Positions 14,953 through 30,860 of a stretch of 32,000 bases of DNA are shown piece by piece. This DNA is from Nitratidesulfovibrio vulgaris str. Hildenborough (GTDB lineage: Bacteria; Desulfobacterota; Desulfovibrionia; Desulfovibrionales; Desulfovibrionaceae). The notes under the pieces were generated by a model. That model had not been told where the DNA came from, did not search any database, and saw nothing but the letters and a program-made list of their open reading frames with translations. The stretch spans positions 2,700,001-2,732,000 of the forward strand of contig NC_002937.3 in the NCBI RefSeq assembly GCF_000195755.1, given 5' to 3'. How positions within the stretch are numbered: the stretch's first letter is position 1; each line of letters starts with the position of its first letter. Made by a program: the position numbers and the translations under genes.

Positions 14953-15462
14953 CTACACCGGATAACTCACGACCACGGCATCCAGCACCTCGACGGCAGC
15001 TGCGGCGGCGACGGCGGCAAGCAGTTCATCCCGGCGCGCGACCAGCTTCTGCCGGGCATACTCAAGCCCGGTGAGGTCGGTCGCAGCGAGCAACGCGGCT
15101 TCCACGGCCACCGTGGTGGGGGTGGGGTCGGAGATGGCGACCACTCCGGCAAGGGCCGCATCGTGCCCTGCCCGGATGGCAACCAGCTTCGCAGTCTTGG
15201 CCTGTTCCAGCGTCAGGGGCGGGGGCGGTGCATCGGCAGCGGCACGGGCCGACTCCCACGCGGCGAGGGCTGGCACCACCAGTGCATCGTACTCGGCTTG
15301 GGTCACCGGGGTGTTCGGTGTGCCGTCGGTGTGTTCCACCCATCCGGTGCGTCCGTCCCACTGGATGGCGTGCACGTGCCCCGGCAGGGTGAGGCTCACG
15401 TCGAGGCCCCGCCCATCCACGATGACGAGGCTGTCGGCGGGTACGATGGTCACTCTAGGCAT
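14953..15462 (-). CDS. Phage hypothetical protein (tail-fibre-associated, DUF4376-like C-terminal half by eye)
   Basis: 170 aa from ATG 15462. AGGAGG lies upstream. It overlaps the preceding gene by 8 nt and is the last gene of the cluster. No TM helix. Confidence 0.6.
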   Translation of the reverse strand: MPRVTIVPADSLVIVDGRGLDVSLTLPGHVHAIQWDGRTGWVEHTDGTPNTPVTQAEYDALVVPALAAWESARAAADAPPPPLTLEQAKTAKLVAIRAGHDAALAGVVAISDPTPTTVAVEAALLAATDLTGLEYARQKLVARRDELLAAVAAAAAVEVLDAVVVSYPV

Positions 15463-15793
15463 GGGGCACCTCCTGTAGGGCGATGGTGCGGGGATGCGCG
15501 GTCGCGCCCGCTGCGTTGTCCGCGCCGAGGGCGGCGAGGGTGATGGCCTGTGACGCCTCTGCCGCACGCACCATCTCGTTGCGCAGCGATTCGGTAGCCG
15601 CCGCGCCCTGCCGCACCTGCTGTGCGTTCTCGATGAGCAGCACGGGCAGCCACGCCAGCGAGCATCCCCACTCGTCGATGTCCGCCCCGGTCTGCGGGTG
15701 CGTGCCGCGCAACTGCGTGAACAGGGCGCAGTCCAGTTGTCTGCATTCAGCGAAGCCCGCGAGCGGGCACAGGTTCTTGCGTTGCATCTGCAT
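15455..15793 (-). CDS. Phage hypothetical protein, Cys-rich N-terminus
   Basis: 112 aa. The ATG lies 2 nt after the tail-fibre stop. Motif CPLAGFAECRQLDC...DEWGC. No convincing TM helix, so it is not an obvious holin. Confidence 0.5.
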   Translation of the reverse strand: MQMQRKNLCPLAGFAECRQLDCALFTQLRGTHPQTGADIDEWGCSLAWLPVLLIENAQQVRQGAAATESLRNEMVRAAEASQAITLAALGADNAAGATAHPRTIALQEVPHA

Positions 15794-15795
15794 AG

Positions 15796-16848
15796 CTAGT
15801 CCTTGGTGGCGATGATGACGTCGATGTAGGCGAGGCGCAGGTCGAGGCCGTGGGTGTGTGAACCGTTGCTCCCCTGCGTGCCGGTGACGAGTTGCGTCGA
15901 GTTGGTGGCCCCGGTGCCGTTGTCGGTGGTGCGGATGACCTGAATGCCGCCGCCTGCGTTACCGGCCCTCCTCACATAGGTGCCTACAGAGTCGATGACC
16001 TCGTGTGCGTGCCCCGGCATCTGCGAGGCGACCAGCGTCGTCGAGTCGACCATCGTACGGCTAAAAATTGAAGAGAAACCCGTGACGCCACCACTCGCCA
16101 CAGCCCCGGAAACCACGCGCAACGCCCTGTCGTTCATGGTCGTGTCCTTCGTCCAGCCCGTGGGGGCCGTCGACTGCTGAAACAGCAGGCGCGTTCCGGC
16201 GGGAAAGGGCTTCACGCCTTCCAGCCCGTACCCGCCGCCCACCGATACAACCACGGCCTTGCCTGCGGCCTCGGCGACAGGGATGGGCAGGATGCGGCTT
16301 GCCGCCTCGTCCCGTGCTGCCTCGGCCCCCGTCTTCGCCGCTTCCGCCCCTGCCCGCGCGACCTCTGCCTCGGCCTTCGCCGCAAGTGCCGCCACAGAGC
16401 TTGTCATGGATGCGGAGACGGATGCATCCAGCTTCTGGAGCAAACCGTCAGGATTCACGTCGGCATGGATGCCGACCTTGATGCACCTCGCCAACTCGTC
16501 ACGCAGTTGCTGCGCCATGAGTGTGAGACGGTCGCACGCCTGTTCCAGCACTTCGGCATCGAGCACCCCGGTATTCCGCAAATCCACATCTTGCGTGAAC
16601 GGCTGGTCGAGCCAGATGGTGAGCCGTTGCCCTTCCGGTACGGAGCACTCGACAATGCCGCCGCCGAAACCCTCATCGCAACGGACGACATAGTCCCGTC
16701 CCTGCTCGAGAAGGACCAGCTCACCCTCGTCGGCACTCAGCCCCGCGCGGACATGCTCGGGCCGGAAGAACGCAAACCCCACCGGCCACTGTGTCTGAAC
16801 GCCATCGCCCCTGTAATGCTCGACTGTCGGCCTTGATACGATCGTCAT
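15796..16848 (-). CDS. Phage tail fibre protein with C-terminal tail-collar-type domain
   Basis: Start set at ATG 16848, 6 nt after GGAGGT; the GTG at 16854 abuts the RBS. The N-terminus VEHYRGDGVQTQWPVGFAFF is typical of short-tailed-phage fibre adaptors. Ala-rich coiled coil AKAEAEVARAGAEAAKTGAEAARDEA. C-terminal motifs APTGWTKD...SQMPGHAHEV...GSHTHGL are collar-like. Confidence 0.8.
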   Translation of the reverse strand: MTIVSRPTVEHYRGDGVQTQWPVGFAFFRPEHVRAGLSADEGELVLLEQGRDYVVRCDEGFGGGIVECSVPEGQRLTIWLDQPFTQDVDLRNTGVLDAEVLEQACDRLTLMAQQLRDELARCIKVGIHADVNPDGLLQKLDASVSASMTSSVAALAAKAEAEVARAGAEAAKTGAEAARDEAASRILPIPVAEAAGKAVVVSVGGGYGLEGVKPFPAGTRLLFQQSTAPTGWTKDTTMNDRALRVVSGAVASGGVTGFSSIFSRTMVDSTTLVASQMPGHAHEVIDSVGTYVRRAGNAGGGIQVIRTTDNGTGATNSTQLVTGTQGSNGSHTHGLDLRLAYIDVIIATKD

Positions 16849-16963
16849 GGGCACACCTCCGTATGCCGTTCATTCTCCATAAGGGCAGCGTAAAGAATCC
16901 GGCACGATGCCCCCCACCACCGGAAGTCCGGCGCCGTTCCTGTCCTCGTCCGGCCCTGTCCCG

Positions 16964-17437
16964 TCATCGCGCAGTCCTACCTATGACCAGTCCGGTACGC
17001 ATGGCCCGACGAAACCTGTCCGCGTCATCCTCGGCGGGAGAGAGCAGCGACTCCGCCCGCCAGCGCGCCATGTCCGCACCATACCGGGCATCGGCGGCCC
17101 GGCGTCGCGTCTCATGTTCCGTGACCGCCGCTTCGGCCCCCGCCTGTTCCGAGGCGTCCACGAGCACATCGAGTGCGCTGCCCGAAGCCATCTCCACGCC
17201 AGACGCCGCCAGCATTGAGCGCGTGCGCCCCGCCGTCCGCGACGCCTCGTCGCGCTGTGCCTTAAGCCTTCGCTCACCTTCCGACTCGATGAGGCGTGCC
17301 CTGTTCTCCTGCTCGTCGGCACTGCGTCCGTAAGCCTCTGCCTGACGGTGCCGTGCACGTGCGGCACTGTCGTCGAACAGGTTCATGCCCGTCTGCACAA
17401 GCGAGCCCACGAGGGCCCCCCCAATATCTCCGCACAT
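16964..17437 (-). CDS. Internal virion protein, T7 gp14-like
   Basis: 157 aa from ATG 17437, with GGAGGGG RBS. Begins MC as T7 gp14 does. The block LAASGVEMASGSALDVLVDASEQ resembles the gp14 GESMLEGSSMDRI region. It sits immediately before the tail fibre gene. Confidence 0.6.
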   Translation of the reverse strand: MCGDIGGALVGSLVQTGMNLFDDSAARARHRQAEAYGRSADEQENRARLIESEGERRLKAQRDEASRTAGRTRSMLAASGVEMASGSALDVLVDASEQAGAEAAVTEHETRRRAADARYGADMARWRAESLLSPAEDDADRFRRAMRTGLVIGRTAR

Positions 17438-17958
17438 GGCGTCACCCCTCCGGTCATACATGGATGCATGAGAGCCCCCTCCGCCCCCACGGGGCGCACA
17501 GGAGCAAGAAAAAGCCCGCACCGTGCCAGCCACCGCTCCATGGCGGGGTACGCGGCAAGTTGCGCGGGCGACAGGACGTTGACGAGTACCGGCCACACGG
17601 CACGCAGGCGGGCCGCGAACAAGGGCGCAAGCCGGGCCAGCGCCCGGCCTGCACGGTCGAGTGCCGGCGTGCCATACAGCCATACGGCGGCGACCCCCGG
17701 AAACTGCGCATACGGCCGTGCCCCACCCAGCGCGATGCACCGCCCATCGTGCAGCATCGCCCAGCGGACGGGTGAAAGGGCGAACGCGCGTGCCGCCGCA
17801 GCCTGTGCCGCCCTGCCCGAAGCCTGTTCCATCTCCGACGCATCGGTCTTGCGTAGCCGCGGTAGCACTTCGCGCAGGTGACACCTGCGGGCGGGCACCA
17901 CCCGGTAGCCGCGCATGCCCGTATGGACGCCCCGGCATTCCGCGATGACATCGCTCAT
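17383..17958 (-). CDS. Phage protein in the T7 gp13 position (possible GNAT-like fold)
   Basis: 191 aa. ATG 17958 overlaps the upstream TGA as ATGA, with GGAGGCGGGAGAG upstream. Its tail overlaps the next gene by 55 nt. Function is inferred only from position and the C-terminal pattern ...VLVNVLSPAQLAAYPAMERWLARCGLF. Confidence 0.55.
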   Translation of the reverse strand: MSDVIAECRGVHTGMRGYRVVPARRCHLREVLPRLRKTDASEMEQASGRAAQAAAARAFALSPVRWAMLHDGRCIALGGARPYAQFPGVAAVWLYGTPALDRAGRALARLAPLFAARLRAVWPVLVNVLSPAQLAAYPAMERWLARCGLFLAPVRPVGAEGALMHPCMTGGVTPCAEILGGPSWARLCRRA

Positions 17959-20052
17959 ATCTCTCCCGCCTCCACGTCGAAGGCCACGGCAAGCACCGTG
18001 CACGGCAACGGGTCGTGCTGACGCAACACCACCGTGGCGCTGTCCCCCGTCATGGCGTCGAGTGTCACTTCGCGCTCTCCGCTGAACAGGGACGGCGCGG
18101 TCCCGGTCACATCGCGGGCGGTGCGGAACGAAAGCTCACGCAACCTCGTCGCGTCCGGCCCGGCATGCAGCCCAAGCGACCGATGCAGGCGCACCCGCGC
18201 CCTTGTCGCCCGCATGGGCCTGCCGCCCCCGGCGATTTCATTCCCCGCAACGCCGAAGGGCATGGGCACGAGTTCGCTCATGAAGGGCAACCCCGCATGG
18301 ATGACCGAAGCCGGGCGGTCGAGGCGCACCCTGCCTTCCGCAACGACCTGCGGGGGATGGACGGCACCGTCGGCAAGGAGGTGCACCGTGCGCCCTTCAA
18401 GATGTTCCAGCCCGCCCACTTCGACCACGGGGTCACCCCGGTATGAAAGGCCGGAGTCGACGAAGAAGGCCTCGACAGCTGCGGTGTCGCCTTCGCCGTA
18501 GCCCGCGCCAAGGTTGTCGCCATCGAAGGGCGGGTCGAGACGCTCGATGCAGCACCGCACCATGCCGCCGCCCTCACGGCGCACGGCGACCCACAACTCG
18601 TCGCCCGCCGTTCCGGGGATAGTGCAGACCGAGAGCACCGCCCCATCCGTGACATGACGATGCCAGCCTGCCACCTCGTGTTCGGGGATGCGCGTCATGG
18701 CGATGAGCCCGCCGTCTTCAGTGACGCACCACACCGTGCCTGAAGGCGATTGCTGCCACGCCCAGTCGATGATGCGCCGCCCGCGTGTGAGATGTTCCGC
18801 GAGGATGGTCAGGTCGGTTCCGGCATAGCCGTCCACATCAAGGCTGTAGCGGAACTCGCGTACGACGCGCCCCCCCGTTGCAAGGCCAGCACGGCATCCC
18901 CGACGGAGAGAGGCTGCACGTCGCCCGACCCCCTCGACGACTGGCGTTCGAGCGAACACGACAGGGGCGAGAACGGCTGCTCGCCCTGACCGGAGAGCGT
19001 CCACTCCCCGCCCCCCGTCCCCACGAGCAACCTGCGGGCGGGCATGAGCCAGCGCACCGCGCTGACTGTATCGGCAGCGATGGTCACGGTGACGGCGTCG
19101 TCGTCGCGCAAGGGACGCGAGACGGAGAAGTTGCCGTAGGCCCCCGAACGGCTGGCCCATATGGTCTGCGGCCCGTTGCGCGTTCCGGCGAAGCAGAGAC
19201 GCTGCTGCCAGAAGACCGCGCACGAGGGCCAGTCGCCTTCGCCGGAGAACGGGTTGCGGGCTTCGGGCGGCCCGGCGTCGAAGTCAGGGGTGCGCCCCGT
19301 GTCGGTATAGGTCTCGCCAGCCCCGGCACTGCCCAGAAAACCGTACACCGAAGCGCCGCCGCCCGCCCGGTAGACACGGTATTCGCCCGCATCCTGAACG
19401 GGCGTCCACGCCAGCGTCACACTCGCCGTCTGTGACAGGGCATCGGGCCCCGTCACCTGTAGCTGAGGGGTGGGCAGACTCTCCTCACCCGATTCGCGAT
19501 GCACGGCGGTGACCACATACGTCCATGTCCGGCTGCCTGCGGGCTTGACCGTGCAGTGCAGGCCTTCAGGCGGCGACACACCCGGCAGGAACGACACATC
19601 CACCAGCCGCCAGTCCGCATGCCCATGACGTTCCAGCCGACGCGGCGGCCCCGCATGGCTGACGAGGTAGAGCATGTCCGCGGACTGGCACCAGCGCAGC
19701 GCGGTCAGCTGTTCGCCCGCCCATGGGGTCTCAAGCCGGAACGGTTCGCCATCGCCACCCAGCACAAGTCCACCACCGTGCCATATGCGTAGCGAACGCG
19801 GCCCGAATTCAAGGACATACGCCTGCGCCTCGCTGAACACGAAGGGGATGAGGCGCACCGGGCCTGCCGGGTCTGCGGCCAGCCCATGAAACGTAAACCC
19901 GGCCTGCGCCATGCCCCGCCGTGGGGGTGCAGCAACATGTTGCACAGGCTGGCGCATCCGTTGGGATAGCGCGCCTGATCGACCCGTGCGGCCATGAGCG
20001 GCGAGAGTTCCCCGGCGTTGAAACTGTTCCTGACGATGGTCGCGCGCGCCAT
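17955..20052 (-). pseudogene. Tail tubular protein B (T7 gp12-like), split into three reading frames by two 1-nt frameshifts
   Basis: Segment A runs from 20052 to about 19885 (MARATIVRNSFNAGELSPLMAARVDQARYPNG...RRPG). Segment B runs to the G7 tract at 18870-18876. Segment C runs to 17955. Adding one G to the G7 tract joins B and C as ...LALQRGGRVVREFRYSLDVDGY.... Reconstructed length is about 698 aa. Confidence 0.7.
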
Positions 20053-20053
20053 G

Positions 20054-20608
20054 TCACCGCACCTCCAGCCACGGGTTGCCCTCGTCGGGGTCTGCCGCCC
20101 CCTCGGCTGCATCGGCCATGCGGGCGAGGTCGAACGCCGCCGCGAAACGTTGCAGCATGGTCTGTTCAAGGCGGGCATTGCCCATGAGCGGCACAGCCAG
20201 CGACGACGCCAGACGCCGCGCCAGCATCTCGGTGAACAGGGCCGGAAAACGCCCGGGGTCGGTCACGCGCACCGTGAGCACGGCTTCCGCAGGTGTGGCG
20301 TCCGTGTAGAGCACCCTGTCCTCCACCACCTCGAAGGGGTCGCCCGCGCGCAGGTGCCGCACACGCAGGCAGTCGCCCGGCAGCCTGTAGGAGCGGGCGT
20401 AGCCGAAGGGCGGTGCACTCTCCATGGGCGCGAGACGCGCGTAGCGTGTGGCGAAGTTCCAGTGATGGCTTTCGAGAAGCTCGTCACGAGTCTCCACATA
20501 GTGACGCGCGCACAGGTCGGCCTCGCGTGAATGCTGGTCGAGGGAGAGAATCTCGGGCGCACCGAGGTAGCGCAGGGCACGGTTGCATATGGCCACGTCA
20601 CTGCCCAT
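20054..20608 (-). CDS. Tail tubular protein A (T7 gp11-like)
   Basis: 184 aa from ATG 20608. ICNRALRYLGAPEILSLDQHSREADLCARHYVETRDELLESHHWNFA parallels the T7 gp11 N-terminal region (VNDILASIGEPPVSTLEGD...RGWTFN). The stop lies 1 nt before the gp12-like start. Confidence 0.65.
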   Translation of the reverse strand: MGSDVAICNRALRYLGAPEILSLDQHSREADLCARHYVETRDELLESHHWNFATRYARLAPMESAPPFGYARSYRLPGDCLRVRHLRAGDPFEVVEDRVLYTDATPAEAVLTVRVTDPGRFPALFTEMLARRLASSLAVPLMGNARLEQTMLQRFAAAFDLARMADAAEGAADPDEGNPWLEVR

Positions 20609-21041
20609 GGGATTCGCCCTCTCCGTCGTTCCCGTCCTGCCTCGCGCTGGCGCTCCCCCCCTCGATATCTCCGGACGCCCCCGTGGGAGCGTGTTCCCGT
20701 CCGCACACACCGGTCCGCCCCTGACGGCGCATCTGGCGCTGCCCTGCCACGCGCGCCAGACGGCGCAGCGTCTCCTCGTCCGCATCGGCGGGAAAGACGA
20801 CGCCCATCGCGGCGAGGCGCGCCTGCAGGGTGGCGCGGACGAAACGGCGCATGTCTCCCTCGCCGGGCCTGTCATCCGCACCATGACGCATCGCGCTCTC
20901 GTCATCGGACGTGTCAGCGCATGGTGTCTCTGCCCGGGCTGCATCATCCTTCGCCTTCTGGTCGCCCGCGCGCTTGCGACCGTCGGCGTCCTTGGTGGCA
21001 CCTTGGCGTTGCGACGCCTCGCACAGGTACATTCTTCCCAT
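20598..21041 (-). CDS. Phage hypothetical protein, charged and low-complexity
   Basis: 148 aa from ATG 21041, with a strong AAGGAG RBS at 6-nt spacing. It overlaps the gp11-like start by 11 nt. No recognisable motif. Confidence 0.45.
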   Translation of the reverse strand: MGRMYLCEASQRQGATKDADGRKRAGDQKAKDDAARAETPCADTSDDESAMRHGADDRPGEGDMRRFVRATLQARLAAMGVVFPADADEETLRRLARVAGQRQMRRQGRTGVCGREHAPTGASGDIEGGSASARQDGNDGEGESHGQ

Positions 21042-21181
21042 GATATTCTCCTTTTGAACCCCGGCACGCCCGCACCCGACGGGGCTGCGCACCTGTTCTG
21101 CTTCCTGCTTGCGTCCTTCAGGGGGCAGGTGCGACGCACGACCACGCCATGCGCCGCAACCTGCCTTGAGGTCATGCGTGG

Positions 21182-21583
21182 CTAACGGGGCTGGACGTCG
21201 AACAGCACGTCCACACTGCCCGACGCCTCGGGGTCATCGTTTCCGAACACCACGCGGATACGGGCCCGGCAGTCCGACGGCACAGGCAGGCGTGCAAGCA
21301 CGTCACCGGGTTCCCACGTACGGGGGCCACCGGAAAAGGTGCGCCTGAACGATACGGGAACCGGCGCGAAGGCGATGCCGTCCGTGCTGTCCTCCAGTCC
21401 CAGCGTGAGGCTCTTTCCATCGCCGAGGGTGACAGGCGTCGCCGCCACCATCACCATCTCGGTCGTACCCAGCAGCCCTCCGGCATGGTGGGCTCCCCCG
21501 TTGCCCTGCACGGTGGCGTTGCGGGGCATCTCCTGCCTGCTGGCAGGCTGCGTGTCGTGGATGCGCAACATATTGCGGTACAT
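21182..21583 (-). CDS. Phage hypothetical protein following the capsid gene (possible decoration or minor head protein)
   Basis: 133 aa with AAGGAG RBS. It starts 27 nt after the capsid stop. The functional suggestion rests on position only. Confidence 0.5.
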   Translation of the reverse strand: MYRNMLRIHDTQPASRQEMPRNATVQGNGGAHHAGGLLGTTEMVMVAATPVTLGDGKSLTLGLEDSTDGIAFAPVPVSFRRTFSGGPRTWEPGDVLARLPVPSDCRARIRVVFGNDDPEASGSVDVLFDVQPR

Positions 21584-21609
21584 GGAGATTCTCCTTGCTG
21601 TTGTGGCTG

Positions 21610-22524: not shown

Positions 22525-22535
22525 ACCTTCTCCTC

Positions 22536-23688: not shown

Positions 23689-25387
23689 GGGGTTCTCCTG
23701 TTCCGCTGTTGCCGCCACCTGTGACAGGGCTGGCAGGCCCGTGCGCCATGCCGTCCTCCGGCATGCCGTGTTCAGCCGCCCCGACGGCAGACGCTGGAAC
23801 CGGCAGCGACATCAGCGAGGCGATGGCGGTTCCCGTCAGGCCGTTCCGCGCCGCACGCAACGTGGCGACCTCCGCATCGGAGCGGACGACACGGGCGGGC
23901 ACCCCGGCGATGGCGGCGAGTTCATCCACCGCCTGTTCGAAGTCCACCTTGTCGAGCACCTGCGGGGCGACCCCTGCCAGGGCCGACACATCCGACGCGA
24001 AACGCCGTATGGCCTGTGCCGTCACCACCCTCTGCGCCTGTGCCAGTGCCGAGACGTACTCCACGCGCATCGACCGTCCGGCCAGTTCCGGCGGGGGCGG
24101 TGGCAACAGACCGCCACGCCGCAGGATGCCGTAGGTGCGCTCCAGCAGGGGGTCGAGCAGTTCGGACTGATGGCGCTCGATGACGGGCCCGAGCATGAGG
24201 AGCTTCTCCTCGCCACGCTCGAGCACCTCGGCGGCGGTGATGTTGGAGCGCCCCTCGGCCGTGAACATCAGGAAGAGGTCGTTGAAGAACCCCTCGCGCA
24301 CGGCACGGCGCACATCCTCCATCTTGTGGGTGACGGCCCCGATGTCCGGATTGATCTGATAGAGAGGGCCCACCGACTCGCCCTGCCCGGGGGTGACGTA
24401 GTTCTGTCCGCCGGGGATGAGGTTGAGGCGCTGCTTGAAGCCGCTGGGCACCCGCATGGGCGGGTTGACCACCTTGTGGATGGCGAGAAGCTGACTGCGG
24501 GCCATCTCCTGCAGCATCTTCACGTCGGGCAGCACATCCATGCCGGGGGAACGTCCATAGATGTCGCCCCCTGCCACGTCCCAGCGTGCCGCCAGATGCG
24601 GGAACTCCTCGAAGCCCCCCTCGTGCAGCAGCCCCTCGGCCCCTTCGGTCTCCCACGTCAGCGACTGCCACGGCATGTTCACCCCGCCGAGGCCTCCGCT
24701 GGCGGTCTTGCCAGCTTCGCCGGCGTTGCGACGCACTCGCGGGCGCACCATGTGCACCAGCGGGACGGAACGTTCGGGATCGCGCCGGAGCATCCGGCGC
24801 ACCCGGCGCGAGAGACGCGCCTCGCCATAGCGTTGGGCCATCTGCCGGGCACTCATCCGCAGACGCCTCACCACGGTATCGACCCTGCCCGCCGCGTCGC
24901 ACGCCCATGCGAAATCGCCACAGGCGAGGCATGAGAAGCGCATGACCCGTTGCGGGTCGGCCTCGTGGTACATGTCCGCCGACCCGAAGGCCGCCAGTTC
25001 AGTGTACAGCCCGTGCACGGCCGCATAGAAGTTGCTGCGCGCCAGCGCCGCGTAGAGGCGACGCTCGACCACATCCAGCCAGCGACGTTCAGGCCCTGCC
25101 TCTTCCATGTCCTCGTCGGCAAGGCGCAACCTGAACCACGGACGCGCGGGCGAGGTGAGCCCCCCCTGCATCCCCGCCGCGAGGATGCGTACGGCCCGCG
25201 TGGCCGTGCCATCGATGATGCGCGGGCCGCGCCGCGCCGTGTCTCCCGCCTCGTCGGCCCTGCGTGGGCTGTCGATGCAACGGGGCAGGACGAAGTCCTC
25301 CACCTCGCGCCACAGCGGTTCCCACACCCGGCGTTCGCGTTCGACACACGACGCGGCATCACGCGCCTCACGCAGTACGGCGTCCAT
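23678..25387 (-). CDS. Portal (head-to-tail connector) protein, T7 gp8 family
   Basis: 569 aa from ATG 25387. Two in-frame GTG codons lie upstream, and the ATG shares 1 nt with the upstream TGA. The blocks IYGRSPGMDVLPDVKMLQEMARSQLLAIHKVVNPP and NITAAEVLERGEEKLLMLGPVIERHQSELLDPLLERTY align by eye with T7 gp8 (SYGRSYIEEYLGDLRSLENLQEAIVK...NPAG and RVTAEEIRYVASELEDTLGGVYSILSQELQLPLV). Confidence 0.85.
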   Translation of the reverse strand: MDAVLREARDAASCVERERRVWEPLWREVEDFVLPRCIDSPRRADEAGDTARRGPRIIDGTATRAVRILAAGMQGGLTSPARPWFRLRLADEDMEEAGPERRWLDVVERRLYAALARSNFYAAVHGLYTELAAFGSADMYHEADPQRVMRFSCLACGDFAWACDAAGRVDTVVRRLRMSARQMAQRYGEARLSRRVRRMLRRDPERSVPLVHMVRPRVRRNAGEAGKTASGGLGGVNMPWQSLTWETEGAEGLLHEGGFEEFPHLAARWDVAGGDIYGRSPGMDVLPDVKMLQEMARSQLLAIHKVVNPPMRVPSGFKQRLNLIPGGQNYVTPGQGESVGPLYQINPDIGAVTHKMEDVRRAVREGFFNDLFLMFTAEGRSNITAAEVLERGEEKLLMLGPVIERHQSELLDPLLERTYGILRRGGLLPPPPPELAGRSMRVEYVSALAQAQRVVTAQAIRRFASDVSALAGVAPQVLDKVDFEQAVDELAAIAGVPARVVRSDAEVATLRAARNGLTGTAIASLMSLPVPASAVGAAEHGMPEDGMAHGPASPVTGGGNSGTGEPHAG

Positions 25388-25605
25388 CACCACCCCAGCA
25401 GGGTCTTGCGGCGCACATCGGCCTCACCCTGCACGCCCAATGCCCCGGTCAACAGCGTTCCCTGACGCCCACGCGCCCTCAACGCCGCCTTGCGGGCCTC
25501 TTCGCGGCCCCTCTCGATGGCCTCGGCCTCCTCCTGTCCCGACTCGTCGACCACCGGCGGTGCCGGGGGCGCGGGTGGGGTATACGACTTGCCGCCTCCG
25601 CCCAT
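25387..25605 (-). CDS. Small virion-associated protein (T7 gp6.7-like by position and composition)
   Basis: 72 aa from ATG 25605, with AAGGAG at 6-nt spacing. Sequence MGGGGKSYTPPAPPAPP...RARGRQGTLLTGALG...RRKTLLGW. It is the first gene of the portal operon. Confidence 0.55.
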   Translation of the reverse strand: MGGGGKSYTPPAPPAPPVVDESGQEEAEAIERGREEARKAALRARGRQGTLLTGALGVQGEADVRRKTLLGW

Positions 25606-26081: not shown

Positions 26082-26115
26082 AAAAAAACGAGCATGAATA
26101 TGTTTTCATGCTCGT
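26082..26115 (-). terminator. Canonical rho-independent terminator, minus-strand orientation, with no gene to terminate
   Basis: On the minus strand: ACGAGCATGAA-AACATA-TTCATGCTCGT followed by TTTTTT (11-bp perfect stem, 6-nt loop). The plus-strand orientation lacks a U-tract. Confidence 0.65.
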
Positions 26116-26221
26116 CACAGCACCCCCAGAACCTAGCCGGACGGTCAACAACGGGCACTGACAGGGCCCGCAACATCGCAAGGGCGGGCAGATGACCGGA
26201 AAAGCCCTGTCCGTATGACTT

Positions 26222-26235
26222 TTCACGAACGTGAA
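26222..26235 (+). promoter_or_regulatory. Perfect palindrome TTCACGAACGTGAA in the pilZ promoter region
   Basis: 5-4-5 dyad (TTCAC-N4-GTGAA) about 36 nt upstream of ATG 26271. It lies between a possible -35 (TTTTCA) and -10 (TATGCT). The architecture resembles CRP/FNR-type boxes. Confidence 0.35.
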
Positions 26236-26270
26236 TCTCGTCTATGCTCAACTATTGAGGGGGAAACGAG

Positions 26271-26897
26271 ATGCGTATGGATGCCGTGTCGACCACTGCG
26301 AAAAGTGGCCCGGAACGTCGCGCCTGCTACCGGGTGGACGCGCCCGCGGGCTTTTTACGCGAAGTGGCCCTGTGGCTACGCCCGAACATGGGAACCAGTG
26401 CAATCGTGACGCTGGACTGCCTTGGCGCGCCCGATTTCGTGGCATCAAGTGAACTGCACGGGGTGCGCCTCGAAGACGTCTCGACACGCGGTCTCGGTTT
26501 TTCATTCGTCCCGCAGGTCCTTCCCGGAGGGGAGCAGTTGCGGAACCGGTCGCTTTATGTCTACATCAAATTGCATTCGCCTGCCGTGAACCGCGAGAAT
26601 CCTCGCTACTGTCTCTTCCTCGGGGCACGGGCGGTGCATCTGGCGCAACACGGAGACAGGCTGCATATGGGGCTGCGCATCACGCAACGCGGCACCCCCG
26701 AACGCACCTCCAAGGCCATACGCATGTTCGACGTGGCCCGCTTCGGCGTTCGTGAACTCACACGCTGGTGCGACGATATGACCCGCATGGGACGCGGCAT
26801 GCTGCCACCCGCAACACCGGGGCTCGACATGGAGCAACTTCTTTCGGAAATCGCAGATCAGGGTGCCTCATGCAGGGCATCCGACGACAAACGCTAG
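26271..26897 (+). CDS. PilZ-domain (c-di-GMP-binding) protein
   Basis: 208 aa with GAGGGGG RBS. RRACYR (RxxxR) and DVSTRG (DxSxxG) motifs have the canonical spacing. The stop lies 15 nt before motA. Confidence 0.8.
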   Translation: MRMDAVSTTAKSGPERRACYRVDAPAGFLREVALWLRPNMGTSAIVTLDCLGAPDFVASSELHGVRLEDVSTRGLGFSFVPQVLPGGEQLRNRSLYVYIKLHSPAVNRENPRYCLFLGARAVHLAQHGDRLHMGLRITQRGTPERTSKAIRMFDVARFGVRELTRWCDDMTRMGRGMLPPATPGLDMEQLLSEIADQGASCRASDDKR

Positions 26898-26912
26898 CCA
26901 ACGGTCGCAGGC

Positions 26913-27758
26913 ATGTTCATCATAATCGGTCTCGTCGTCGTCTTCGGCTCCATCATCGGGGGCTACCTGATAGCCAACGGCAACCTCGCCGTGCTCGTGC
27001 AGCCCGCAGAAATGATCATCATCCTCGGCGCCGCCATGGGGGCCTTCCTCGCGTCGCAAACCAAGTACACGCTTGGGCTGGTCATCAAGAACATCAAGCA
27101 CATCTTCGGCGACCCCGGCATGAACAAGGCCCGCTACCTTGAGACGCTGGCGCTGCTCAACTCGCTGTTCTCGAAGATGCATCGCGAAGGTGTCATCAGC
27201 ATCGAGCAGGACATCGAAAAGCCCGAATCGAGCGCCATCTTCACGAAGTACCCTTCCATCTCCAAGGACAAGCATATCGTGCACTTCATAGGTGACACGC
27301 TGCGCGTCTACCTCACCACCGGCGACCCCAGCGACATCGAAAGCCTCATGAAGATCGACATGGAGTCGATGCACGAAGAGGAGATGGTGGCGCCGGGGGC
27401 CGTGAACCGCATGGCTGAATCGTTGCCCGGCATGGGTATCGTCGCCGCCGTTCTGGGCGTCGTGCTCACCATGGGCATGATCAACGAACCGCCCGAAATC
27501 CTCGGCCACCACATCGGCGCGGCCCTCGTCGGCACATTCGTGGGTATTCTCTTCTGCTACGGCATCTTCGGCCCCATGGCCGCGAAACTGGAGAACCACG
27601 CCCACGAGATGCACGCCTACTACAACGTCATCAAGGAAGGCGTGGCAGCCGCCATACGCGGTTCCACGCCTATCATCGCCGTGGAATACGGCAGACGCGC
27701 CATTCCGCACGCCTTCCGTCCCACGTTCGCCGAAATGGAAGAAAAGCTGAAGGGCTGA
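26913..27758 (+). CDS. motA: Flagellar motor stator protein MotA
   Basis: 281 aa, collinear by eye with E. coli MotA: MFIIIGLVVVFGSIIGGYL...QPAEMIIILGAAMGAF...SLPGMGIVAAVLGVV...ALVGTFVGILFCYG...PIIAVEYGRR. Confidence 0.9.
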   Translation: MFIIIGLVVVFGSIIGGYLIANGNLAVLVQPAEMIIILGAAMGAFLASQTKYTLGLVIKNIKHIFGDPGMNKARYLETLALLNSLFSKMHREGVISIEQDIEKPESSAIFTKYPSISKDKHIVHFIGDTLRVYLTTGDPSDIESLMKIDMESMHEEEMVAPGAVNRMAESLPGMGIVAAVLGVVLTMGMINEPPEILGHHIGAALVGTFVGILFCYGIFGPMAAKLENHAHEMHAYYNVIKEGVAAAIRGSTPIIAVEYGRRAIPHAFRPTFAEMEEKLKG

Positions 27759-27784
27759 TGCCCTGAAGCACCAAGGAGACTGGC

Positions 27785-28516
27785 ATGGGTGGCGGCAAGG
27801 GTGGCGGTTCATGGAAGGTGGCCTACGCCGACTTCGTGACGGCGATGATGGCCTTCTTTCTGCTCATGTGGATTCTCAACATGACGTCAAAGGAGACCAA
27901 GGAAGGCCTTGCAGGGTATTTTTCAAGCGACGCGGCCAAGATGCAGTCGAACAACGTCTCGCCGGTGGCCAACAACCCCTTCGTGCAGAGTACCGACAAA
28001 CTCGACACCCGCGACTTCAAGATCACCGAAGTCGAACGCTCGCACTATGCCATCGCCCAGAAACTGCGGCAGATGCTCATGGCGGATGCCACGCCCCAGA
28101 GTGCCAGCGGCATCAGTGCCGACGACGTGGGCGTCCAGCTTCGCGTCAACTCCGACATCATGTACGCCCCCGGTTCCGCAGAACTTGCCCCCGAAGGAGC
28201 CAAGGTTCTTGATGATGTGATCCGCATCCTCAAGGAATACAACCTGTACCTCGTGGTTCGGGGGCATACCGACAGCGGCGAACCCCGCAACAGCATCTAC
28301 CCCTCCAACTGGGAACTCTCCGGTGCCCGCGCCGCAGCTGCCGTGCGGTACATCATCACCCACGGCGAGATCAAACCGACCCGCCTGCGCAGCATCGCCT
28401 ACGCCGACACCCGCCCCCTCGAACCCAACACTTCCCCGGACAGCAGGGCCAAGAACCGCCGGGTGGAATTCTACTTCCACCGCCCCGAGGTCATGTCCTA
28501 CAGCGTTGTGTATTGA
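27785..28516 (+). CDS. motB: Flagellar motor stator protein MotB (OmpA-like C-terminal domain)
   Basis: 243 aa with AAGGAG RBS. WKVAYADFVTAMMAFFLLMW is the TM segment with the conserved Asp. C-terminal motifs VRGHTD...NWELSGARAAAVVRY...NRRVEF bind peptidoglycan. Confidence 0.9.
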   Translation: MGGGKGGGSWKVAYADFVTAMMAFFLLMWILNMTSKETKEGLAGYFSSDAAKMQSNNVSPVANNPFVQSTDKLDTRDFKITEVERSHYAIAQKLRQMLMADATPQSASGISADDVGVQLRVNSDIMYAPGSAELAPEGAKVLDDVIRILKEYNLYLVVRGHTDSGEPRNSIYPSNWELSGARAAAAVRYIITHGEIKPTRLRSIAYADTRPLEPNTSPDSRAKNRRVEFYFHRPEVMSYSVVY

Positions 28517-28549
28517 GCCTGCCGCCCCGCCGCCACCCCCACAGCACGG

Positions 28550-29308
28550 TCATGACGTCGTCATGGTGCGGAACGCATCGCGCGTCAGGACCGTGAGCAC
28601 CACATCGACCACACGTCCGGCCTCGCCCCCGCCCGGAGTGCCGGGGGCGAGGCGCGTGCCAGCCGGCACGACACCAAGACGAGAGAAACCGAGGTCTGCC
28701 GCAAGACGCAGGGCATGGCGATACGGGGCAGGTGTGACGCCCAGCAACGTATCGAGCGGGGCATCCGCACACTGCGGCGCGAGAAGGAACGTCAGCGCCA
28801 TGGCCCCGGCGGCGCGTGCGGCGGACATCCCGTTCCGGAAGAAACAGAAGTGGACCTGCGCCGCCCTGCCGCTGAACCCGTTGCACCAGAAGAAGCCCTG
28901 CGGCACTGCGTGTGCGTCGACACGATAGAGCCATGCCCTTTCAGGCGCCAGCAGACGCGCAAAGGCGCCAAAGTCGGTGACGCCCCCATCGTGGAAGACG
29001 ACCCGCACGAGGTCGTCCTCCACCAGACGCGTCCACAGCCCTTGCAACCCGTCGATGCCGAAGTCGTCGGTGCCTGCCGTACCGGTCCCGCCGTCATCCT
29101 GCCTTCCGGGCAGCCGCACGATGCGCCCGTCCTCTCCGGGGGGCCGTCCGCCACGATCTTTGCGGCCAGCTGGCTGTTCGCCGCCCCCGTCGCCTGCGGT
29201 GCCTGCGGCGTCCGGCATATAGCGCACAAGCCGAAGTCCCGTACCGACCGCGGCCCTTTCACCCCCGCGTTCCGCCCCTGCAACGCCGCAACTGCCGTTC
29301 TCAACCAT
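28550..29308 (-). CDS. Phage-cluster hypothetical protein: Gly/Asp/Arg-rich N-terminus, possible acetyltransferase-like C-terminal fold
   Basis: 252 aa from ATG 29308, overlapping the terminase stop by 8 nt. The C-terminal pattern ...LLGVTPAPYRHALRLAADLGFSRLGVVP... is GNAT-like by eye only. Confidence 0.45.
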   Translation of the reverse strand: MVENGSCGVAGAERGGERAAVGTGLRLVRYMPDAAGTAGDGGGEQPAGRKDRGGRPPGEDGRIVRLPGRQDDGGTGTAGTDDFGIDGLQGLWTRLVEDDLVRVVFHDGGVTDFGAFARLLAPERAWLYRVDAHAVPQGFFWCNGFSGRAAQVHFCFFRNGMSAARAAGAMALTFLLAPQCADAPLDTLLGVTPAPYRHALRLAADLGFSRLGVVPAGTRLAPGTPGGGEAGRVVDVVLTVLTRDAFRTMTTS

Positions 29309-30860
29309 AGAGCGGATACTCCATATTGCCGATGGCAGCAGGTTCTGCCGCATCCCACACAGGAAAGGCACACCCTAGGGCGGGGTCGGTGATGCGCGCG
29401 AGGCAATCGAGCATGTCGTCATGCCGCGCCACCGGAAACGCCATGAACTCGTCGTCGACGAACTCCCTGACAAGGTCGCGCACCCGCCCTTCTGCATCGA
29501 CGAAGGGACAGACGTCCGGAAGGTAGAGACGCCCCTGTTCGAACAGGGGGACGAGTCGCCGTATCCTGTCGTTCTTGGGCATGGCACCCCCAAGCGGCAC
29601 GATGTCGAAGCGATGGTTGCAGCGGGCCTGTTCCGTGCGGATATGCTCGATATCGGCCTGCATGCCGTAGCGTTCATAGCCCACCTTCAGCGGCCTGTAC
29701 TGCCGGTGGAGACGTAACAGGGCGGCGGCCCTGCCCGTGAGGTTGAGCCTGTCCCGCAGTCCGTCGACAAGGTAGTGGTTGCCGTCGGCCCCGAGTCCCA
29801 CCACGAGCATCACCGTATAGTCGCTATCCCTCTTGCGCTCTCCTGCCGGGTCGACCAGCAGATACAGGTTCATGTTCGAGGTGCCTGACACTTCTCCCGG
29901 CAGCGATGAGGCCCCGGAGGAGGACAGGGACGGGGGGCGGCGCCAGTAGCGAAGCCACGACGACCGGAACCCCTGTGTGGCATCTGCCACCGGGTTCAAT
30001 AGCATCTGGCAGCCGAAGACATAGGGCCCCATGGCACGCCTTTTTTCGGCGAGGGCGTCGGGCGAGAGCAGAAGCGGCCTGCCCTCCGCCGTACCGTCTT
30101 CCGTGGCGGGATGCACGCGTGGTACGGCCGCCTCGCGCTCCAGAATGGCGCGATAGGTGTCGTTGAAATGGTAGCGGGTGCCGATGATACGGCGTCTGCC
30201 GCCCCGCGCTCCGAGGTTGAGCGAAAGGGCCCAGCATTCCGTCACCTTGGCGATCATCTCGGGCGAAGAGACCGACTCGCGGGTGACAACGTCATCATAG
30301 ACCAGCAGGCTGAAGTGCTTCCCGGTGGGCTGACCGTCCACCAGTCCCCACGCCTCCACGGTGGCCTCCTTGGGGTTGGCGCGCCGCCGCACCACGATGC
30401 CCTTGTCCAGAGACCAGACCGGAGCCTGCGTCCGGGGCGAGTCCCACAGCACATCGGGATAGCAGCGACGCAGCCATACGTTGCGCTCGAACTCGAGCTT
30501 GATCTGATTGAGGAAGTCCTTCGCCACAGGGCGGCTGTGGGAGAAGATGCCCACCGTCACTTCCGGGTCCAGAAGGATGTCACGGATGGTCTGACCGAAC
30601 GTGATGATGGTGGACTTGTAGTGCTCGCGGGCCCACAGGTCCAGACGACCGTCCGGGGCCGCCTGCACTTCGGCACAACGCTCGAAGGCCCAGTCGTTAT
30701 CCATGTCGTCACGCCCGAGAAGGCGTGTCAGCAAGAAGAACAGGTCGCGCCGCCCAAGTTCGGCCATGACGCCGGCAAGCCCCTGTTCACCCTGCGCCCT
30801 TCCCTCGGCCATGAGGTCGTCGTACATCTCCCGTGCACGACGACGCGCCTTTTCCGGCAT
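29301..30860 (-). CDS. Phage terminase large subunit
   Basis: 519 aa from ATG 30860, with AAGGAG RBS. Walker A-like AREHYKST and Walker B-like FSLLVYDDV. The RNaseH-like nuclease half begins LYLLVDPAGERKRDSDYTVMLVVG. The 258-nt N-terminal extension on the ORF track lacks an RBS and looks non-coding. Confidence 0.85.
   Translation of the reverse strand: MPEKARRRAREMYDDLMAEGRAQGEQGLAGVMAELGRRDLFFLLTRLLGRDDMDNDWAFERCAEVQAAPDGRLDLWAREHYKSTIITFGQTIRDILLDPEVTVGIFSHSRPVAKDFLNQIKLEFERNVWLRRCYPDVLWDSPRTQAPVWSLDKGIVVRRRANPKEATVEAWGLVDGQPTGKHFSLLVYDDVVTRESVSSPEMIAKVTECWALSLNLGARGGRRRIIGTRYHFNDTYRAILEREAAVPRVHPATEDGTAEGRPLLLSPDALAEKRRAMGPYVFGCQMLLNPVADATQGFRSSWLRYWRRPPSLSSSGASSLPGEVSGTSNMNLYLLVDPAGERKRDSDYTVMLVVGLGADGNHYLVDGLRDRLNLTGRAAALLRLHRQYRPLKVGYERYGMQADIEHIRTEQARCNHRFDIVPLGGAMPKNDRIRRLVPLFEQGRLYLPDVCPFVDAEGRVRDLVREFVDDEFMAFPVARHDDMLDCLARITDPALGCAFPVWDAAEPAAIGNMEYPLYG

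What the first reader, a model, noticed from the sequence alone, without database searches (positions are those of the whole stretch)
14953..30860. Structural-only T7-like cluster in core chromosome: candidate podovirus-type gene transfer agent
Sixteen co-oriented, mostly overlapping minus-strand ORFs reproduce the T7 virion gene order. The order is gp6.7-like, gp8-type portal, scaffold, capsid, gp11-like, gp12-like, gp13-position ORF, gp14-like and tail fibre, with a large terminase 3.7 kb upstream. Nothing else a phage needs is present. There is no integrase, repressor, RNA/DNA polymerase, primase or nuclease. There is no small terminase, holin, endolysin or spanin. No tRNA or visible att-type direct repeat marks either edge, and both flanks are ordinary chromosomal genes. 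A head-tail-packaging-only cluster embedded in core genome is the signature of a GTA. From memory, a short-tailed GTA (Dd1) packaging about 13.6 kb of host DNA was described in Desulfovibrio desulfuricans. To my knowledge its genes were never assigned. This locus is 15.9 kb, or about 13.0 kb without the motility island, which is at or above such a head capacity. The terminase also sits upstream rather than downstream of the structural genes, a circular permutation relative to T7. The alternative reading is a decaying prophage stump.
Basis: partly seen in the sequence, partly recalled or inferred. Interest (0 to 1): 0.8.

Follow-up and report, generated by a model that had tools for sequence, protein, structure and literature searches.

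The report
Domesticated short-tailed phage particle genes
Desulfovibrio vulgaris carries a head, tail and DNA-packaging gene set from an ancient short-tailed phage that has been inherited with the chromosome and kept intact by selection across several related genera, which makes it a strong candidate gene transfer agent, although the copy in this window has a broken tail gene.

Summary
The cluster is real. On the minus strand, 14953-25605 encodes two small tail-end proteins, tail fibre, gp14-like, gp13-position ORF, tail tube B and A, capsid, scaffold, portal and small proteins. 28550-30860 encodes a conserved TerL partner and the large terminase. motA/motB lie between the two blocks. The window has no integrase, repressor, replication, lysis or small-terminase gene, no tRNA and no att repeat.

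Three corrections. First, the nearest relatives are BPP-1-like temperate podophages, not T7, and in those the terminase is upstream by default. Second, the tail tube B gene is broken by two 1-bp deletions specific to the Hildenborough lineage; it is intact in DP4 and other strains. Third, the published putative Dd1 island is Ddes_0702-0725 in D. desulfuricans, and its relation to this locus could not be tested.

The same structural-only element sits in conserved chromosomal neighbourhoods in Nitratidesulfovibrio and Halodesulfovibrio, and in the same gene order in Oleidesulfovibrio, D. cuneatus and related MAGs. Different host genes split terminase from portal in different genera. Capsid and TerL trees follow host genera. 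In-situ dN/dS is 0.01-0.35 for core genes. Complete phage relatives appear only at 60% capsid identity or less.

Verdict: a domesticated phage module, most likely GTA-type, disabled in this strain. DNA packaging and transfer are untested.

The parts
14953..15462 (-). g01, 169-aa tail-end protein of unknown role (possible fibre accessory)
   Evidence: phrog_5400 E=5e-30 over the C-terminal 90 aa. A homologue follows the fibre in L017.
15455..15793 (-). g02, 112-aa ORF after the fibre, function unknown
   Evidence: GC3 of 0.86 is coding-like. No profile hit.
15796..16854 (-). Tail fibre, with an N-terminal adaptor domain of podophage tail-fibre/tail families and a variable C-terminus
   Evidence: phrog_1640 E=6e-15 and 15 other tail or fibre families on residues 3-125. 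It is the fastest-evolving gene of the element, with dN/dS 0.41-0.48.
16964..17386 (-). gp14-like internal virion protein (140 aa)
   Evidence: phrog_418 E=7e-9. Homologues in L080 and L086 carry PF24072 T7_gp14.
17383..17958 (-). g05, ORF in the gp13 position (191 aa)
   Evidence: Conserved in this position across genera. The Halodesulfovibrio homologue gives a weak PF11090 Phage_T7_Gp13 hit, E=0.017.
17955..20052 (-). Tail tubular protein B (gp12-like); a pseudogene in this genome
   Evidence: phrog_376 is split over two of the three reading frames. There are 1-bp deletions at 18869 and 19882 relative to five strains. The repaired frame gives 699 aa, 2 substitutions from DP4. The fragments are WP_223295100 (its shorter original call is DVU_2596) and WP_223295101, seen on 65-69 contigs including the 3,570,858-bp chromosome.
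20054..20608 (-). Tail tubular protein A (gp11-like, 184 aa)
   Evidence: phrog_394 E=1e-46, full profile length. 46-74% identical across genera.
20598..21041 (-). g08, variable small ORF between g09 and gp11; doubtful as a gene
   Evidence: Called in DP4. Only patchy similarity in L007, L015 and L080. dN/dS 0.5-0.6.
21182..21583 (-). g09, 133-aa protein in the position of the BPP-1 cement protein Bbp16
   Evidence: Conserved at 100% coverage in all element loci. Profile-profile match to Bbp16 homologues has E=0.0013 but only 19% probability, so it is inconclusive.
21610..22524 (-). Major capsid protein, BPP-1/Carin1 type
   Evidence: Weak PF20911 GP7 and phrog_212 hits. The only PDB sequence hit is 3j4u. 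An AF2 model with pLDDT 83.6 best matches 8cjz and 3j4u, E about 5e-14. dN/dS 0.01-0.17 in unsaturated and in-situ pairs.
22536..23288 (-). Scaffold-like protein
   Evidence: phrog_3742 E=1e-14 and phrog_458 E=4e-13. Same position as bbp18 in BPP-1.
23281..23688 (-). g12, 135-aa protein between portal and scaffold
   Evidence: Conserved across genera. No family hit.
23678..25387 (-). Portal protein (T7 gp8 type, 569 aa)
   Evidence: PF12236 E=1e-190. Identical to AAS97076.1 of Hildenborough. Best cultured phages are 39% identical or less.
25387..25605 (-). g14, 72-aa protein that heads the portal operon
   Evidence: phrog_831 E=1e-11. Similar to HTVC010P gp03. The family starts MGGGG(K) and has a strong AAGGAG ribosome-binding site in most of the loci shown.
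26087..26116 (-). Terminator-like hairpin in the spacer upstream of the portal operon
   Evidence: 12-bp stem followed by a T-run. Its role is not established.
26271..28516 (+). Host insertion: 208-aa ORF, motA and motB. Not part of the element; it splits it.
   Evidence: PF20560/PF01618 and PF13677/PF00691. Other genera carry different host genes at the same junction.
28550..29308 (-). g15, conserved partner gene that overlaps the 3' end of TerL; it sits where BPP-1-like phages carry a GNAT acetyltransferase
   Evidence: Present after TerL in every lineage. The positional equivalents, bbp24 and the ctEw122 GNAT, are the two sequences that match GNAT Pfam families. No significant direct similarity was found.
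29301..30860 (-). Large terminase (519 aa)
   Evidence: phrog_38 E=4e-56 and PF17289 nuclease domain E=5e-4. Identical to AAS97083.1. In-situ dN/dS 0.03-0.04.

Best explanation
The locus is a domesticated remnant of a BPP-1-like temperate short-tailed phage. It became fixed in the chromosome of an ancestor of several Desulfovibrionaceae genera and has been inherited vertically since.

What it keeps: large terminase with a conserved partner gene, portal, scaffold, BPP-1-type capsid, a possible cement protein, tail tube A and B, gp13/gp14-like proteins and a fast-evolving tail fibre.

What it lacks, compared with its phage relatives: small terminase, the large internal ejection proteins, lysis, replication and lysogeny genes.

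Shown here: gene content and order; conserved chromosomal neighbourhoods in Nitratidesulfovibrio and Halodesulfovibrio; the split between terminase and portal by different host genes in different genera; congruent capsid and TerL trees; purifying selection in situ.

Inferred: where the genes are intact (DP4 and most other strains and species), they build small short-tailed particles. Their terminase has no sequence-specific small subunit, so it fills heads with arbitrary cellular DNA. That would make the element a gene transfer agent. Because the trans-envelope ejection proteins are missing, recipient uptake functions would probably be needed, as for RcGTA.

In the genome of this window (Hildenborough lineage) two frameshifts destroy the tail tube B gene, so complete particles are most likely not made here.
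For: Homology and order:
- The gene order matches BPP-1, phage ctEw122 and a genuine Maridesulfovibrio prophage that carries integrase and TerS.
- The capsid model matches the BPP-1 and Carin1 capsids.

Structural-only content in every relative examined.

Conserved host context:
- HK-TetR lies on the tail side in D. vulgaris and in three Halodesulfovibrio species (TetR 69-70% identical).
- ABC-F lies on the tail side in L015 (90% identical).
- DUF6627, Peptidase_C39 and TPR lie on the TerL side in Nitratidesulfovibrio HK-II.

Spacer between the TerL partner and the portal operon: 0 kb in L015, 3 kb of motAB here, about 5 kb of other host genes in Halodesulfovibrio, more than 10 kb in Nitratidesulfovibrio, and inverted in Oleidesulfovibrio.

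Trees: structural-only loci form one capsid clade whose subclades follow host genera. The TerL tree is congruent with it, and phage contigs fall outside.

Selection:
- Halodesulfovibrio, in situ: dN/dS 0.01-0.18 for element genes against 0.03-0.25 for host flanks.
- Nitratidesulfovibrio: 0.09-0.35 for core genes, 0.41-0.48 for the fibre.
- Within D. vulgaris: pN/pS 0.26.

Relatives: in IMG/VR, the loci with 61% capsid identity or more lie on 5-19 kb contigs (one of 31 kb). Complete 39-47 kb phage contigs appear only at 60% or less.

Inactivation here.
Against: - No particle, packaging, transfer or expression data for this locus were found.
- No TerS, holin or endolysin lies in the window, so production would depend on genes elsewhere.
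- The Hildenborough copy is broken, and another strain has a 236-bp deletion in g15. This shows that selection is at times relaxed.
- Within-species pN/pS (0.26) is higher than for the neighbouring host genes (0.04).
- The one complete prophage examined in the family also shows no giant internal protein in the sequence seen. The loss of ejection proteins may therefore predate domestication.
- Purifying selection shows that the genes do something. It does not show what.
Confidence: 0.55

Rival explanations
1. It is a domesticated particle with a function other than gene transfer. One option is a PBSX-like killer particle, which packages host DNA but acts as a bacteriocin. Another is a set of structural proteins kept because they interfere with infection by related BPP-1-like phages.
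For: The evidence for conservation and selection is the same as for the main explanation and does not discriminate between functions. The fast-evolving fibre fits any role that depends on cell-surface recognition. The absence of ejection proteins would hamper DNA delivery. Related true prophages occur in the same genomes.
Against: Retention of the terminase after it was physically separated from the head genes, with dN/dS of 0.03-0.04, argues that DNA packaging itself is under selection. No toxin or immunity gene is associated with the locus. GTAs are the established precedent for this architecture.
Confidence: 0.2
2. It is an ordinary decaying prophage stump with no current function. Its similarity between species would reflect repeated acquisition of related phages followed by deletion.
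For: tail tube B is frameshifted twice in Hildenborough and g15 is partly deleted in CP116246.1. L040 has an internal deletion and L015 lacks a fibre. TerS, lysis and regulatory genes are missing from the window. The TerL type is common in real phages at 54-67% identity.
Against: Host flanks and insertion junctions are conserved across species whose synonymous sites are near saturation. All core ORFs are intact in most species. dN/dS is 0.01-0.35 in situ. Structural-only loci are monophyletic and follow host genera in two separately located modules. No close complete prophage was found.
Confidence: 0.1
3. It is a helper-dependent element. The cluster is completed in trans by resident BPP-1-like or other prophages, which would supply TerS, ejection proteins and lysis. 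It would then act as a fixed satellite-like capsid producer rather than an autonomous GTA.
For: Some genomes carry both the element and a genuine related prophage with TerS. D. vulgaris Hildenborough is reported to hold up to 8 prophage-like elements (PMC6006170). A TerS-like gene sits beside the element in A2-like Nitratidesulfovibrio.
Against: The element has no integrase, replication or excision functions and is not mobile, unlike known satellites. It is retained in many species without a detected helper nearby. Helper presence could not be surveyed here.
Confidence: 0.1

Closest known systems
Bordetella phage BPP-1 (Rauchvirus) and related temperate podophages (ctEw122, Cobetia phage Carin1, Pelagibacter phage HTVC010P)
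   Same: The order of morphogenesis genes is the same: TerL, partner gene, small ORFs, portal, small ORF, scaffold, capsid, small capsid-associated protein, tail tube A, tail tube B, gp14-like, fibre. The portal is T7 gp8-type (about 37-39% identity). The capsid has the BPP-1/Carin1 fold.
   Different: The element has no TerS, no 720-aa transglycosylase or 2052-aa internal proteins, no lysis cassette, and no replication, cI/Cro, integrase or att site. It is interrupted by host genes. It is fixed at one chromosomal site across genera.
RcGTA-type gene transfer agents of Alphaproteobacteria
   Same: It is a head-tail-packaging-only gene set embedded in the chromosome, vertically inherited, under purifying selection, and spread over more than one locus separated by host genes. 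There is no DNA-specific small terminase at the locus.
   Different: The phage ancestry is unrelated: a podovirus with T7-type portal and tail, against a siphovirus of HK97 type. No regulator, holin/endolysin or maturation loci have been identified. No experimental evidence of packaging or transfer exists.
Dd1 of Desulfovibrio desulfuricans (Rapp and Wall 1987) and its putative island Ddes_0702-0725
   Same: The host family is the same, and a short-tailed morphology is expected. The putative island is a run of hypothetical genes that includes a GCN5-like acetyltransferase (Ddes_0708). That recalls the TerL-GNAT pair of BPP-1-like modules (PMC5701242).
   Different: The species differs. No D. 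desulfuricans ATCC 27774 protein appeared among the named top hits for portal, TerL or capsid. The predicted TerS is Ddes_0720 (PMC6854486), whereas this locus has none. Homology was not testable with the data at hand.
FpGTA of Faecalibacterium prausnitzii (Nat Commun 2026, PMC12946183)
   Same: It is a candidate GTA-like element of probable podovirus morphology, encoded in two operons.
   Different: The phylum differs. FpGTA has experimental evidence for packaged host DNA and proteomics. No sequence comparison was made here.

Membership tests
Gene transfer agent (viriform) | Phage-derived head, tail and packaging genes in the chromosome, without replication, lysogeny or excision functions | tested here: met
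   Pfam and PHROG scans of the window ORFs, neighbourhoods of relatives, no tRNA or att.
Gene transfer agent (viriform) | Vertical inheritance with the host lineage at an orthologous locus | tested here: met
   Host flanks are conserved across species and genera. Capsid and TerL trees follow host genera. No full species tree was available.
Gene transfer agent (viriform) | Purifying selection on the structural genes after domestication | tested here: met
   In-situ NG86 dN/dS is 0.01-0.35 for core genes. Exception: the tail tube B gene is a pseudogene in this strain.
Gene transfer agent (viriform) | Particles package essentially random host DNA, without preference for their own genes | not testable with these tools
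   Needs sequencing of DNase-protected particle DNA. The only pointer is the absence of a TerS at the locus.
Gene transfer agent (viriform) | Packaged DNA is delivered to recipient cells (marker transfer) | not testable with these tools
   No data were found for D. vulgaris.
BPP-1-like (Rauchvirus-type) podophage morphogenesis module | Gene order TerL, partner, portal, scaffold, capsid, tube A, tube B, gp14-like, fibre | tested here: met
   Comparison with NC_005357, MW202640 and prophage L086.
BPP-1-like (Rauchvirus-type) podophage morphogenesis module | GP7-type capsid with the BPP-1 HK97-like topology | tested here: met
   Foldseek best hits are 8cjz and 3j4u, E about 5e-14 and TM about 0.6. 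The profile hits only 3j4u. Homologues carry PF20911.
BPP-1-like (Rauchvirus-type) podophage morphogenesis module | Bbp16-type cement protein after the capsid gene | tested here: inconclusive
   A 133-aa gene sits in the right place. hhalign gives E=0.0013 with 19% probability. No Pfam hit.
Complete BPP-1-like prophage | TerS, large internal virion proteins, lysis, replication, repressor and integrase all present | tested here: not met
   All are absent from the window. They are present in BPP-1, and partly in L086 and L108.
T7-like phage (Autographiviridae) | Phage RNA polymerase and DNA polymerase, gp10-type capsid, terminase at the end of the structural block | tested here: not met
   No polymerase is present. 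The capsid is BPP-1 type. The terminase lies upstream, as in BPP-1. Only the portal, gp11, gp12, gp14 and the fibre N-terminus are T7-type.
Dd1 gene cluster of D. desulfuricans | Homology to the putative island Ddes_0702-0725 | not testable with these tools
Only its annotation was read.

The most novel reading that the evidence does not exclude
This is a genetically new family of gene transfer agents, derived from a BPP-1-like podophage. It is spread by descent through much of the Desulfovibrionaceae and is already fragmented into separately located terminase and head-tail modules. It may also be the same kind of element as the never-verified Dd1 of D. desulfuricans. That would give the 1987 observation a genetic basis and a tractable model in D. 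vulgaris strains with an intact tail tube B gene.
Probability: 0.35. Interest if true: 0.8.

Novelty: new variant of a known kind. Interest (0 to 1): 0.62.

Why it matters
Only a handful of genetically distinct GTA families are known, and the genes of the Desulfovibrio agent have never been verified. This element offers three things. First, it is a concrete, testable gene set in a genetically tractable group of sulfate reducers. Second, it provides a natural control: Hildenborough has a broken tail tube B gene and DP4 an intact one. Third, it is an example of a podophage module being taken apart by host-gene insertions while selection keeps both halves. If it does move DNA, it would bear on horizontal gene flow in sulfate-reducing communities in sediment, corrosion and gut settings.

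Tried and rejected
- Exact look-up of the GTG-start portal ORF found nothing. The ATG-start form identified Hildenborough.
- Literature searches for locus tags DVU2592-2611 found nothing in main texts.
- No sigma-54 promoter was found upstream of the portal operon, and a shared-word search across 12 species did not exceed shuffled controls. The consensus scan found no sigma-70-like promoter.
- No att-type direct repeats, no tRNA, no Rfam family.
- Direct BLASTP of g15 against the phage GNAT at the same position was not significant. Pfam recognised GNAT in only two sequences of that alignment, consistent with the two phage proteins annotated as GNAT. One unidentified member of that alignment hit DUF2824. 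The GNAT-like nature of g15 therefore rests on position alone.
- The match of g09 to Bbp16 stayed inconclusive.
- A 'loss of giant ejection proteins on domestication' reading was weakened. The one complete Desulfovibrionaceae prophage examined also shows none in the sequence available, although provirus L108 has an 811-aa internal protein with an endolysin domain.
- TerL identity is not a marker of domestication, because many 37-45 kb phage contigs carry 54-67% identical TerLs.
- A capsid search and a TerL search of IMG/VR returned no contig from D. desulfuricans ATCC 27774.

Full report
**Source of the window.** Positions 16913-32000 of the window are 100% identical to contig DAIPTE010000006.1 of assembly GCA_036778195.1. 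That stretch is 99.3-99.5% identical to D. vulgaris DP4 and four other strains or metagenome contigs. The portal and terminase proteins are identical to AAS97076.1 and AAS97083.1 of D. vulgaris Hildenborough. The fragment of the broken tail gene corresponds to DVU_2596. By numbering, the cluster should therefore lie at about DVU_259x to DVU_2611; this is an inference.

**Anatomy of the cluster.** Profile searches confirm a minus-strand virion gene block. In window order it contains:
- g01 (phrog_5400) and g02;
- the tail fibre, whose N-terminal domain matches podophage tail and tail-fibre families;
- a gp14-like internal virion protein;
- an ORF in the gp13 position;
- tail tube B (phrog_376) and tail tube A (phrog_394);
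- a doubtful small ORF (g08);
- a 133-aa protein (g09);
- the capsid and a scaffold-like protein;
- a 135-aa protein (g12);
- the portal (PF12236, E=1e-190);
- a 72-aa protein (g14, phrog_831).

After a 665-bp spacer come a 208-aa ORF, motA and motB on the plus strand. Then, back on the minus strand, come a conserved 252-aa gene (g15) and the large terminase (phrog_38, E=4e-56). g15 overlaps the 3' end of the terminase gene.

Nothing else phage-like is present. The left flank holds a hybrid kinase, TetR, DUF1499, CorA, an MCP, ABC-F, a histidine kinase and a hemerythrin-PAS protein. The right flank holds DUF6627, Peptidase_C39, TPR, an SBP and a PAS kinase. There is no tRNA, no Rfam family and no att-like repeat.

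**A broken tail gene.** The tail tube B profile is matched by two overlapping ORFs in different frames, and a third frame carries the N-terminus.
- Aligned with five other D. vulgaris sequences, the window alone lacks one C at 18869 (C7 instead of C8) and one C at 19882 (C3 instead of C4).
- Restoring both bases gives a 699-aa protein that differs from the DP4 protein at two residues.
- The two fragments are on record on 65-69 contigs, including the 3,570,858-bp Hildenborough chromosome. The intact 699-aa form is found in DP4 and many other assemblies.

The frameshifts are therefore real and specific to the Hildenborough lineage. Among the six D. vulgaris sequences compared, all other genes of the element to the right of the fibre are uninterrupted, apart from a 236-bp deletion in the non-conserved N-terminal part of g15 in CP116246.1.

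**Which phage it comes from.** Cultured phages reach at most 39% portal identity. The best are an uncultured podovirus (ctEw122), Pelagibacter phage HTVC010P, Caulobacter phages, Cobetia phage Carin1 and Bordetella phage BPP-1.
- BPP-1 and ctEw122 share one order: (TerS), TerL, GNAT acetyltransferase, two small ORFs, portal, small ORFs, scaffold, capsid, small capsid-associated protein, small ORF, tube A, tube B, gp14-like, two very large internal proteins, fibre.
- A genuine prophage in a Maridesulfovibrio genome has the same order. It carries an integrase, HTH regulators and a TerS (phrog_309), a capsid annotated PF20911 (GP7) and a following protein annotated PF21190 (Bbp16).
- The window's capsid gives only weak sequence hits. 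However, a profile of 39 homologues hits only the BPP-1 capsid in the PDB. An AlphaFold model (pLDDT 83.6) matches the Carin1 and BPP-1 capsids best, with E about 5e-14.

The element is therefore BPP-1-like with a T7-type portal and tail. The upstream terminase is the native arrangement, not a permutation. Compared with these relatives, the window lacks TerS, the large internal proteins, lysis, replication and lysogeny genes.

**Distribution and synteny.** A scan of one genome per species found 73 loci with a related portal. I mapped all window proteins onto them. The block from g14 and portal through to the gp14-like gene, and in most loci the fibre, is present in the same order in:
- four other Nitratidesulfovibrio species;
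- several uncultured Desulfovibrio MAGs;
- D. cuneatus;
- five or more Halodesulfovibrio genomes;
- Oleidesulfovibrio.

Neighbourhoods with precomputed Pfam labels show no phage regulatory or replication genes around them. The distance between g15 and g14 varies by lineage:
- L015: contiguous;
- D. vulgaris: 3 kb (motAB);
- Halodesulfovibrio: about 5 kb (Na/Ala symporter, metallophosphatase, M23 peptidase);
- Nitratidesulfovibrio HK-II and A2: more than 10 kb;
- Oleidesulfovibrio: the terminase module is inverted.

Host flanks are conserved:
- TetR (69-70% identical) and the adjacent kinase lie on the tail side in both D. vulgaris and Halodesulfovibrio.
- ABC-F (90%) lies on the tail side of L015.
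- DUF6627 (78%), Peptidase_C39 (66%) and TPR (62%) lie on the terminase side in Nitratidesulfovibrio HK-II.

In Maridesulfovibrio a related element is split at a second point. Here TerL to portal is followed by 6-8 kb of host genes, and then by a scaffold gene and a GP7 capsid (PF20911, E=1e-128). A PF11351 GTA_holin_3TM gene lies upstream of its terminase.

**Phylogeny and relatives.** In IMG/VR, the contigs whose capsid is 61% identical or more are 5-19 kb long, with one of 31 kb. Complete 39-47 kb contigs appear only at 60% or less. Some of these carry ORFs of 1200-1340 aa, and provirus L108 has an 811-aa internal protein with an endolysin domain downstream of tube B.
- A neighbour-joining capsid tree places all structural-only loci in one clade. 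Its subclades follow host genera, and phage contigs fall outside.
- The terminase tree has the same shape, although the terminase is physically separated from the head genes in most lineages.
- These are distance trees without support values, and no genome-wide species tree was available.

**Selection.** Among six D. vulgaris sequences the cluster has 67 synonymous and 51 non-synonymous segregating sites. That gives pN/pS of 0.26, against 0.04 for the neighbouring host genes. Between species, in comparisons where synonymous sites are not saturated and the host context is shared, NG86 dN/dS values are:
- Halodesulfovibrio element genes: 0.01-0.18 (capsid 0.01-0.02, TerL 0.03-0.04, portal 0.04-0.05). 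Their host flanks give 0.03-0.25.
- Nitratidesulfovibrio core genes: 0.09-0.35.
- Nitratidesulfovibrio tail fibre: 0.41-0.48.

Every core gene has thus been under purifying selection while resident at this locus. The receptor-binding end evolves fastest.

**Interpretation.** The distribution is not patchy. dN/dS is not near 1. The closest relatives are not complete prophages. The element is best described as a domesticated phage morphogenesis and packaging module. What it packages and delivers is inferred, not shown. Continued selection on a terminase that lies apart from the head genes, and the lack of a small terminase at the locus, point to non-specific DNA packaging as in known GTAs. A killer-particle role, a phage-exclusion role or helper dependence cannot be excluded. 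In this genome the particle is most likely not completed, because tail tube B is broken.

**Relation to Dd1 and the literature.** Reviews still list Dd1 as only cursorily characterised (PMC11841831).
- A putative GTA island, Ddes_0702-0725, is named in D. desulfuricans ATCC 27774. It is repressed up to 100-fold by nitrate and includes a GCN5-like acetyltransferase, Ddes_0708 (PMC5701242).
- A TerS, Ddes_0720, has been predicted for that island (PMC6854486).
- I could not obtain those sequences, so homology with the present cluster is open.
- No named D. desulfuricans ATCC 27774 protein appeared among the top hits for portal, TerL or capsid.
- I found no paper that names the D. vulgaris locus.
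- A 2026 paper describes a Faecalibacterium element as the first podovirus-like GTA-like element (PMC12946183).

**Limits.** NG86 estimates are crude and dS is saturated for distant pairs. Orthology of insertion sites was judged from 10-kb flanks. Several relatives are MAGs. TerS, lysis genes and regulators may lie elsewhere in the genome and were not searched. Attempts to find a shared promoter or operator upstream of the portal operon failed.

Noticed in passing
window 26087-26116 (minus strand): A 12-bp-stem hairpin followed by a T-run lies about 480 nt upstream of the g14/portal operon. It sits in the spacer shared with the divergent motility genes, and no minus-strand gene ends there. It could be a leader terminator subject to antitermination.
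   Followed up: no
window 26271-28516; L081 5103-9263; L083 12564-21746: Host genes inserted at the same junction (after the TerL partner, before g14) differ by genus: motAB here, Na/Ala symporter plus metallophosphatase plus M23 peptidase in Halodesulfovibrio, and more than 10 kb in Nitratidesulfovibrio. The junction behaves as a permissive insertion point.
   Followed up: partly
L082 5640-6951; L028 11825-21416: Maridesulfovibrio elements carry a PF11351 GTA_holin_3TM gene and small ORFs upstream of TerL. They are split a second time, between portal and scaffold/GP7 capsid, by an ABC transporter and other host genes.
   Followed up: partly
L080 3143-9370 (also L007-L010 and L015): In A2-like Nitratidesulfovibrio a divergently transcribed block lies next to g14. 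It contains a 291-aa TerS-like gene (PF03592, phrog_51), an esterase-like protein and four hypothetical genes, with dN/dS 0.12-0.50. D. vulgaris lacks this block at this site.
   Followed up: partly
window 29038-29273 versus L004 (CP116246.1): One D. vulgaris strain has a 236-bp deletion in the non-conserved, low-complexity N-terminal extension of g15. The conserved C-terminal domain remains callable.
   Followed up: partly
window 25387-25605 and homologues in about 18 loci: The 72-79-aa protein that heads the portal operon always begins MGGGG(K) or MGGGK and ends in a TxLTGxLG...LLG motif. It resembles HTVC010P gp03. Its function is unknown.
   Followed up: no
L038/L086 (Maridesulfovibrio OY781931.1); also Desulfovibrio sp. 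X2 (P0042, P0097): Some genomes hold both the conserved element and a second, more distant copy. In OY781931.1 the second copy is a genuine prophage with integrase, regulators and TerS.
   Followed up: partly
window 26271-26897 (plus strand): A 208-aa ORF upstream of motA has no family hit. An RRxxxR-like motif near its N-terminus made me think of a PilZ/YcgR-type flagellar brake. This was judged by eye only.
   Followed up: no
D. desulfuricans ATCC 27774, Ddes_0702-0726 (literature only): The published putative GTA island includes a GCN5-like acetyltransferase (Ddes_0708) and is followed by a putative phage repressor (Ddes_0726). It is repressed up to 100-fold by nitrate. A GNAT gene inside a run of hypothetical genes recalls BPP-1-like modules.
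   Followed up: partly
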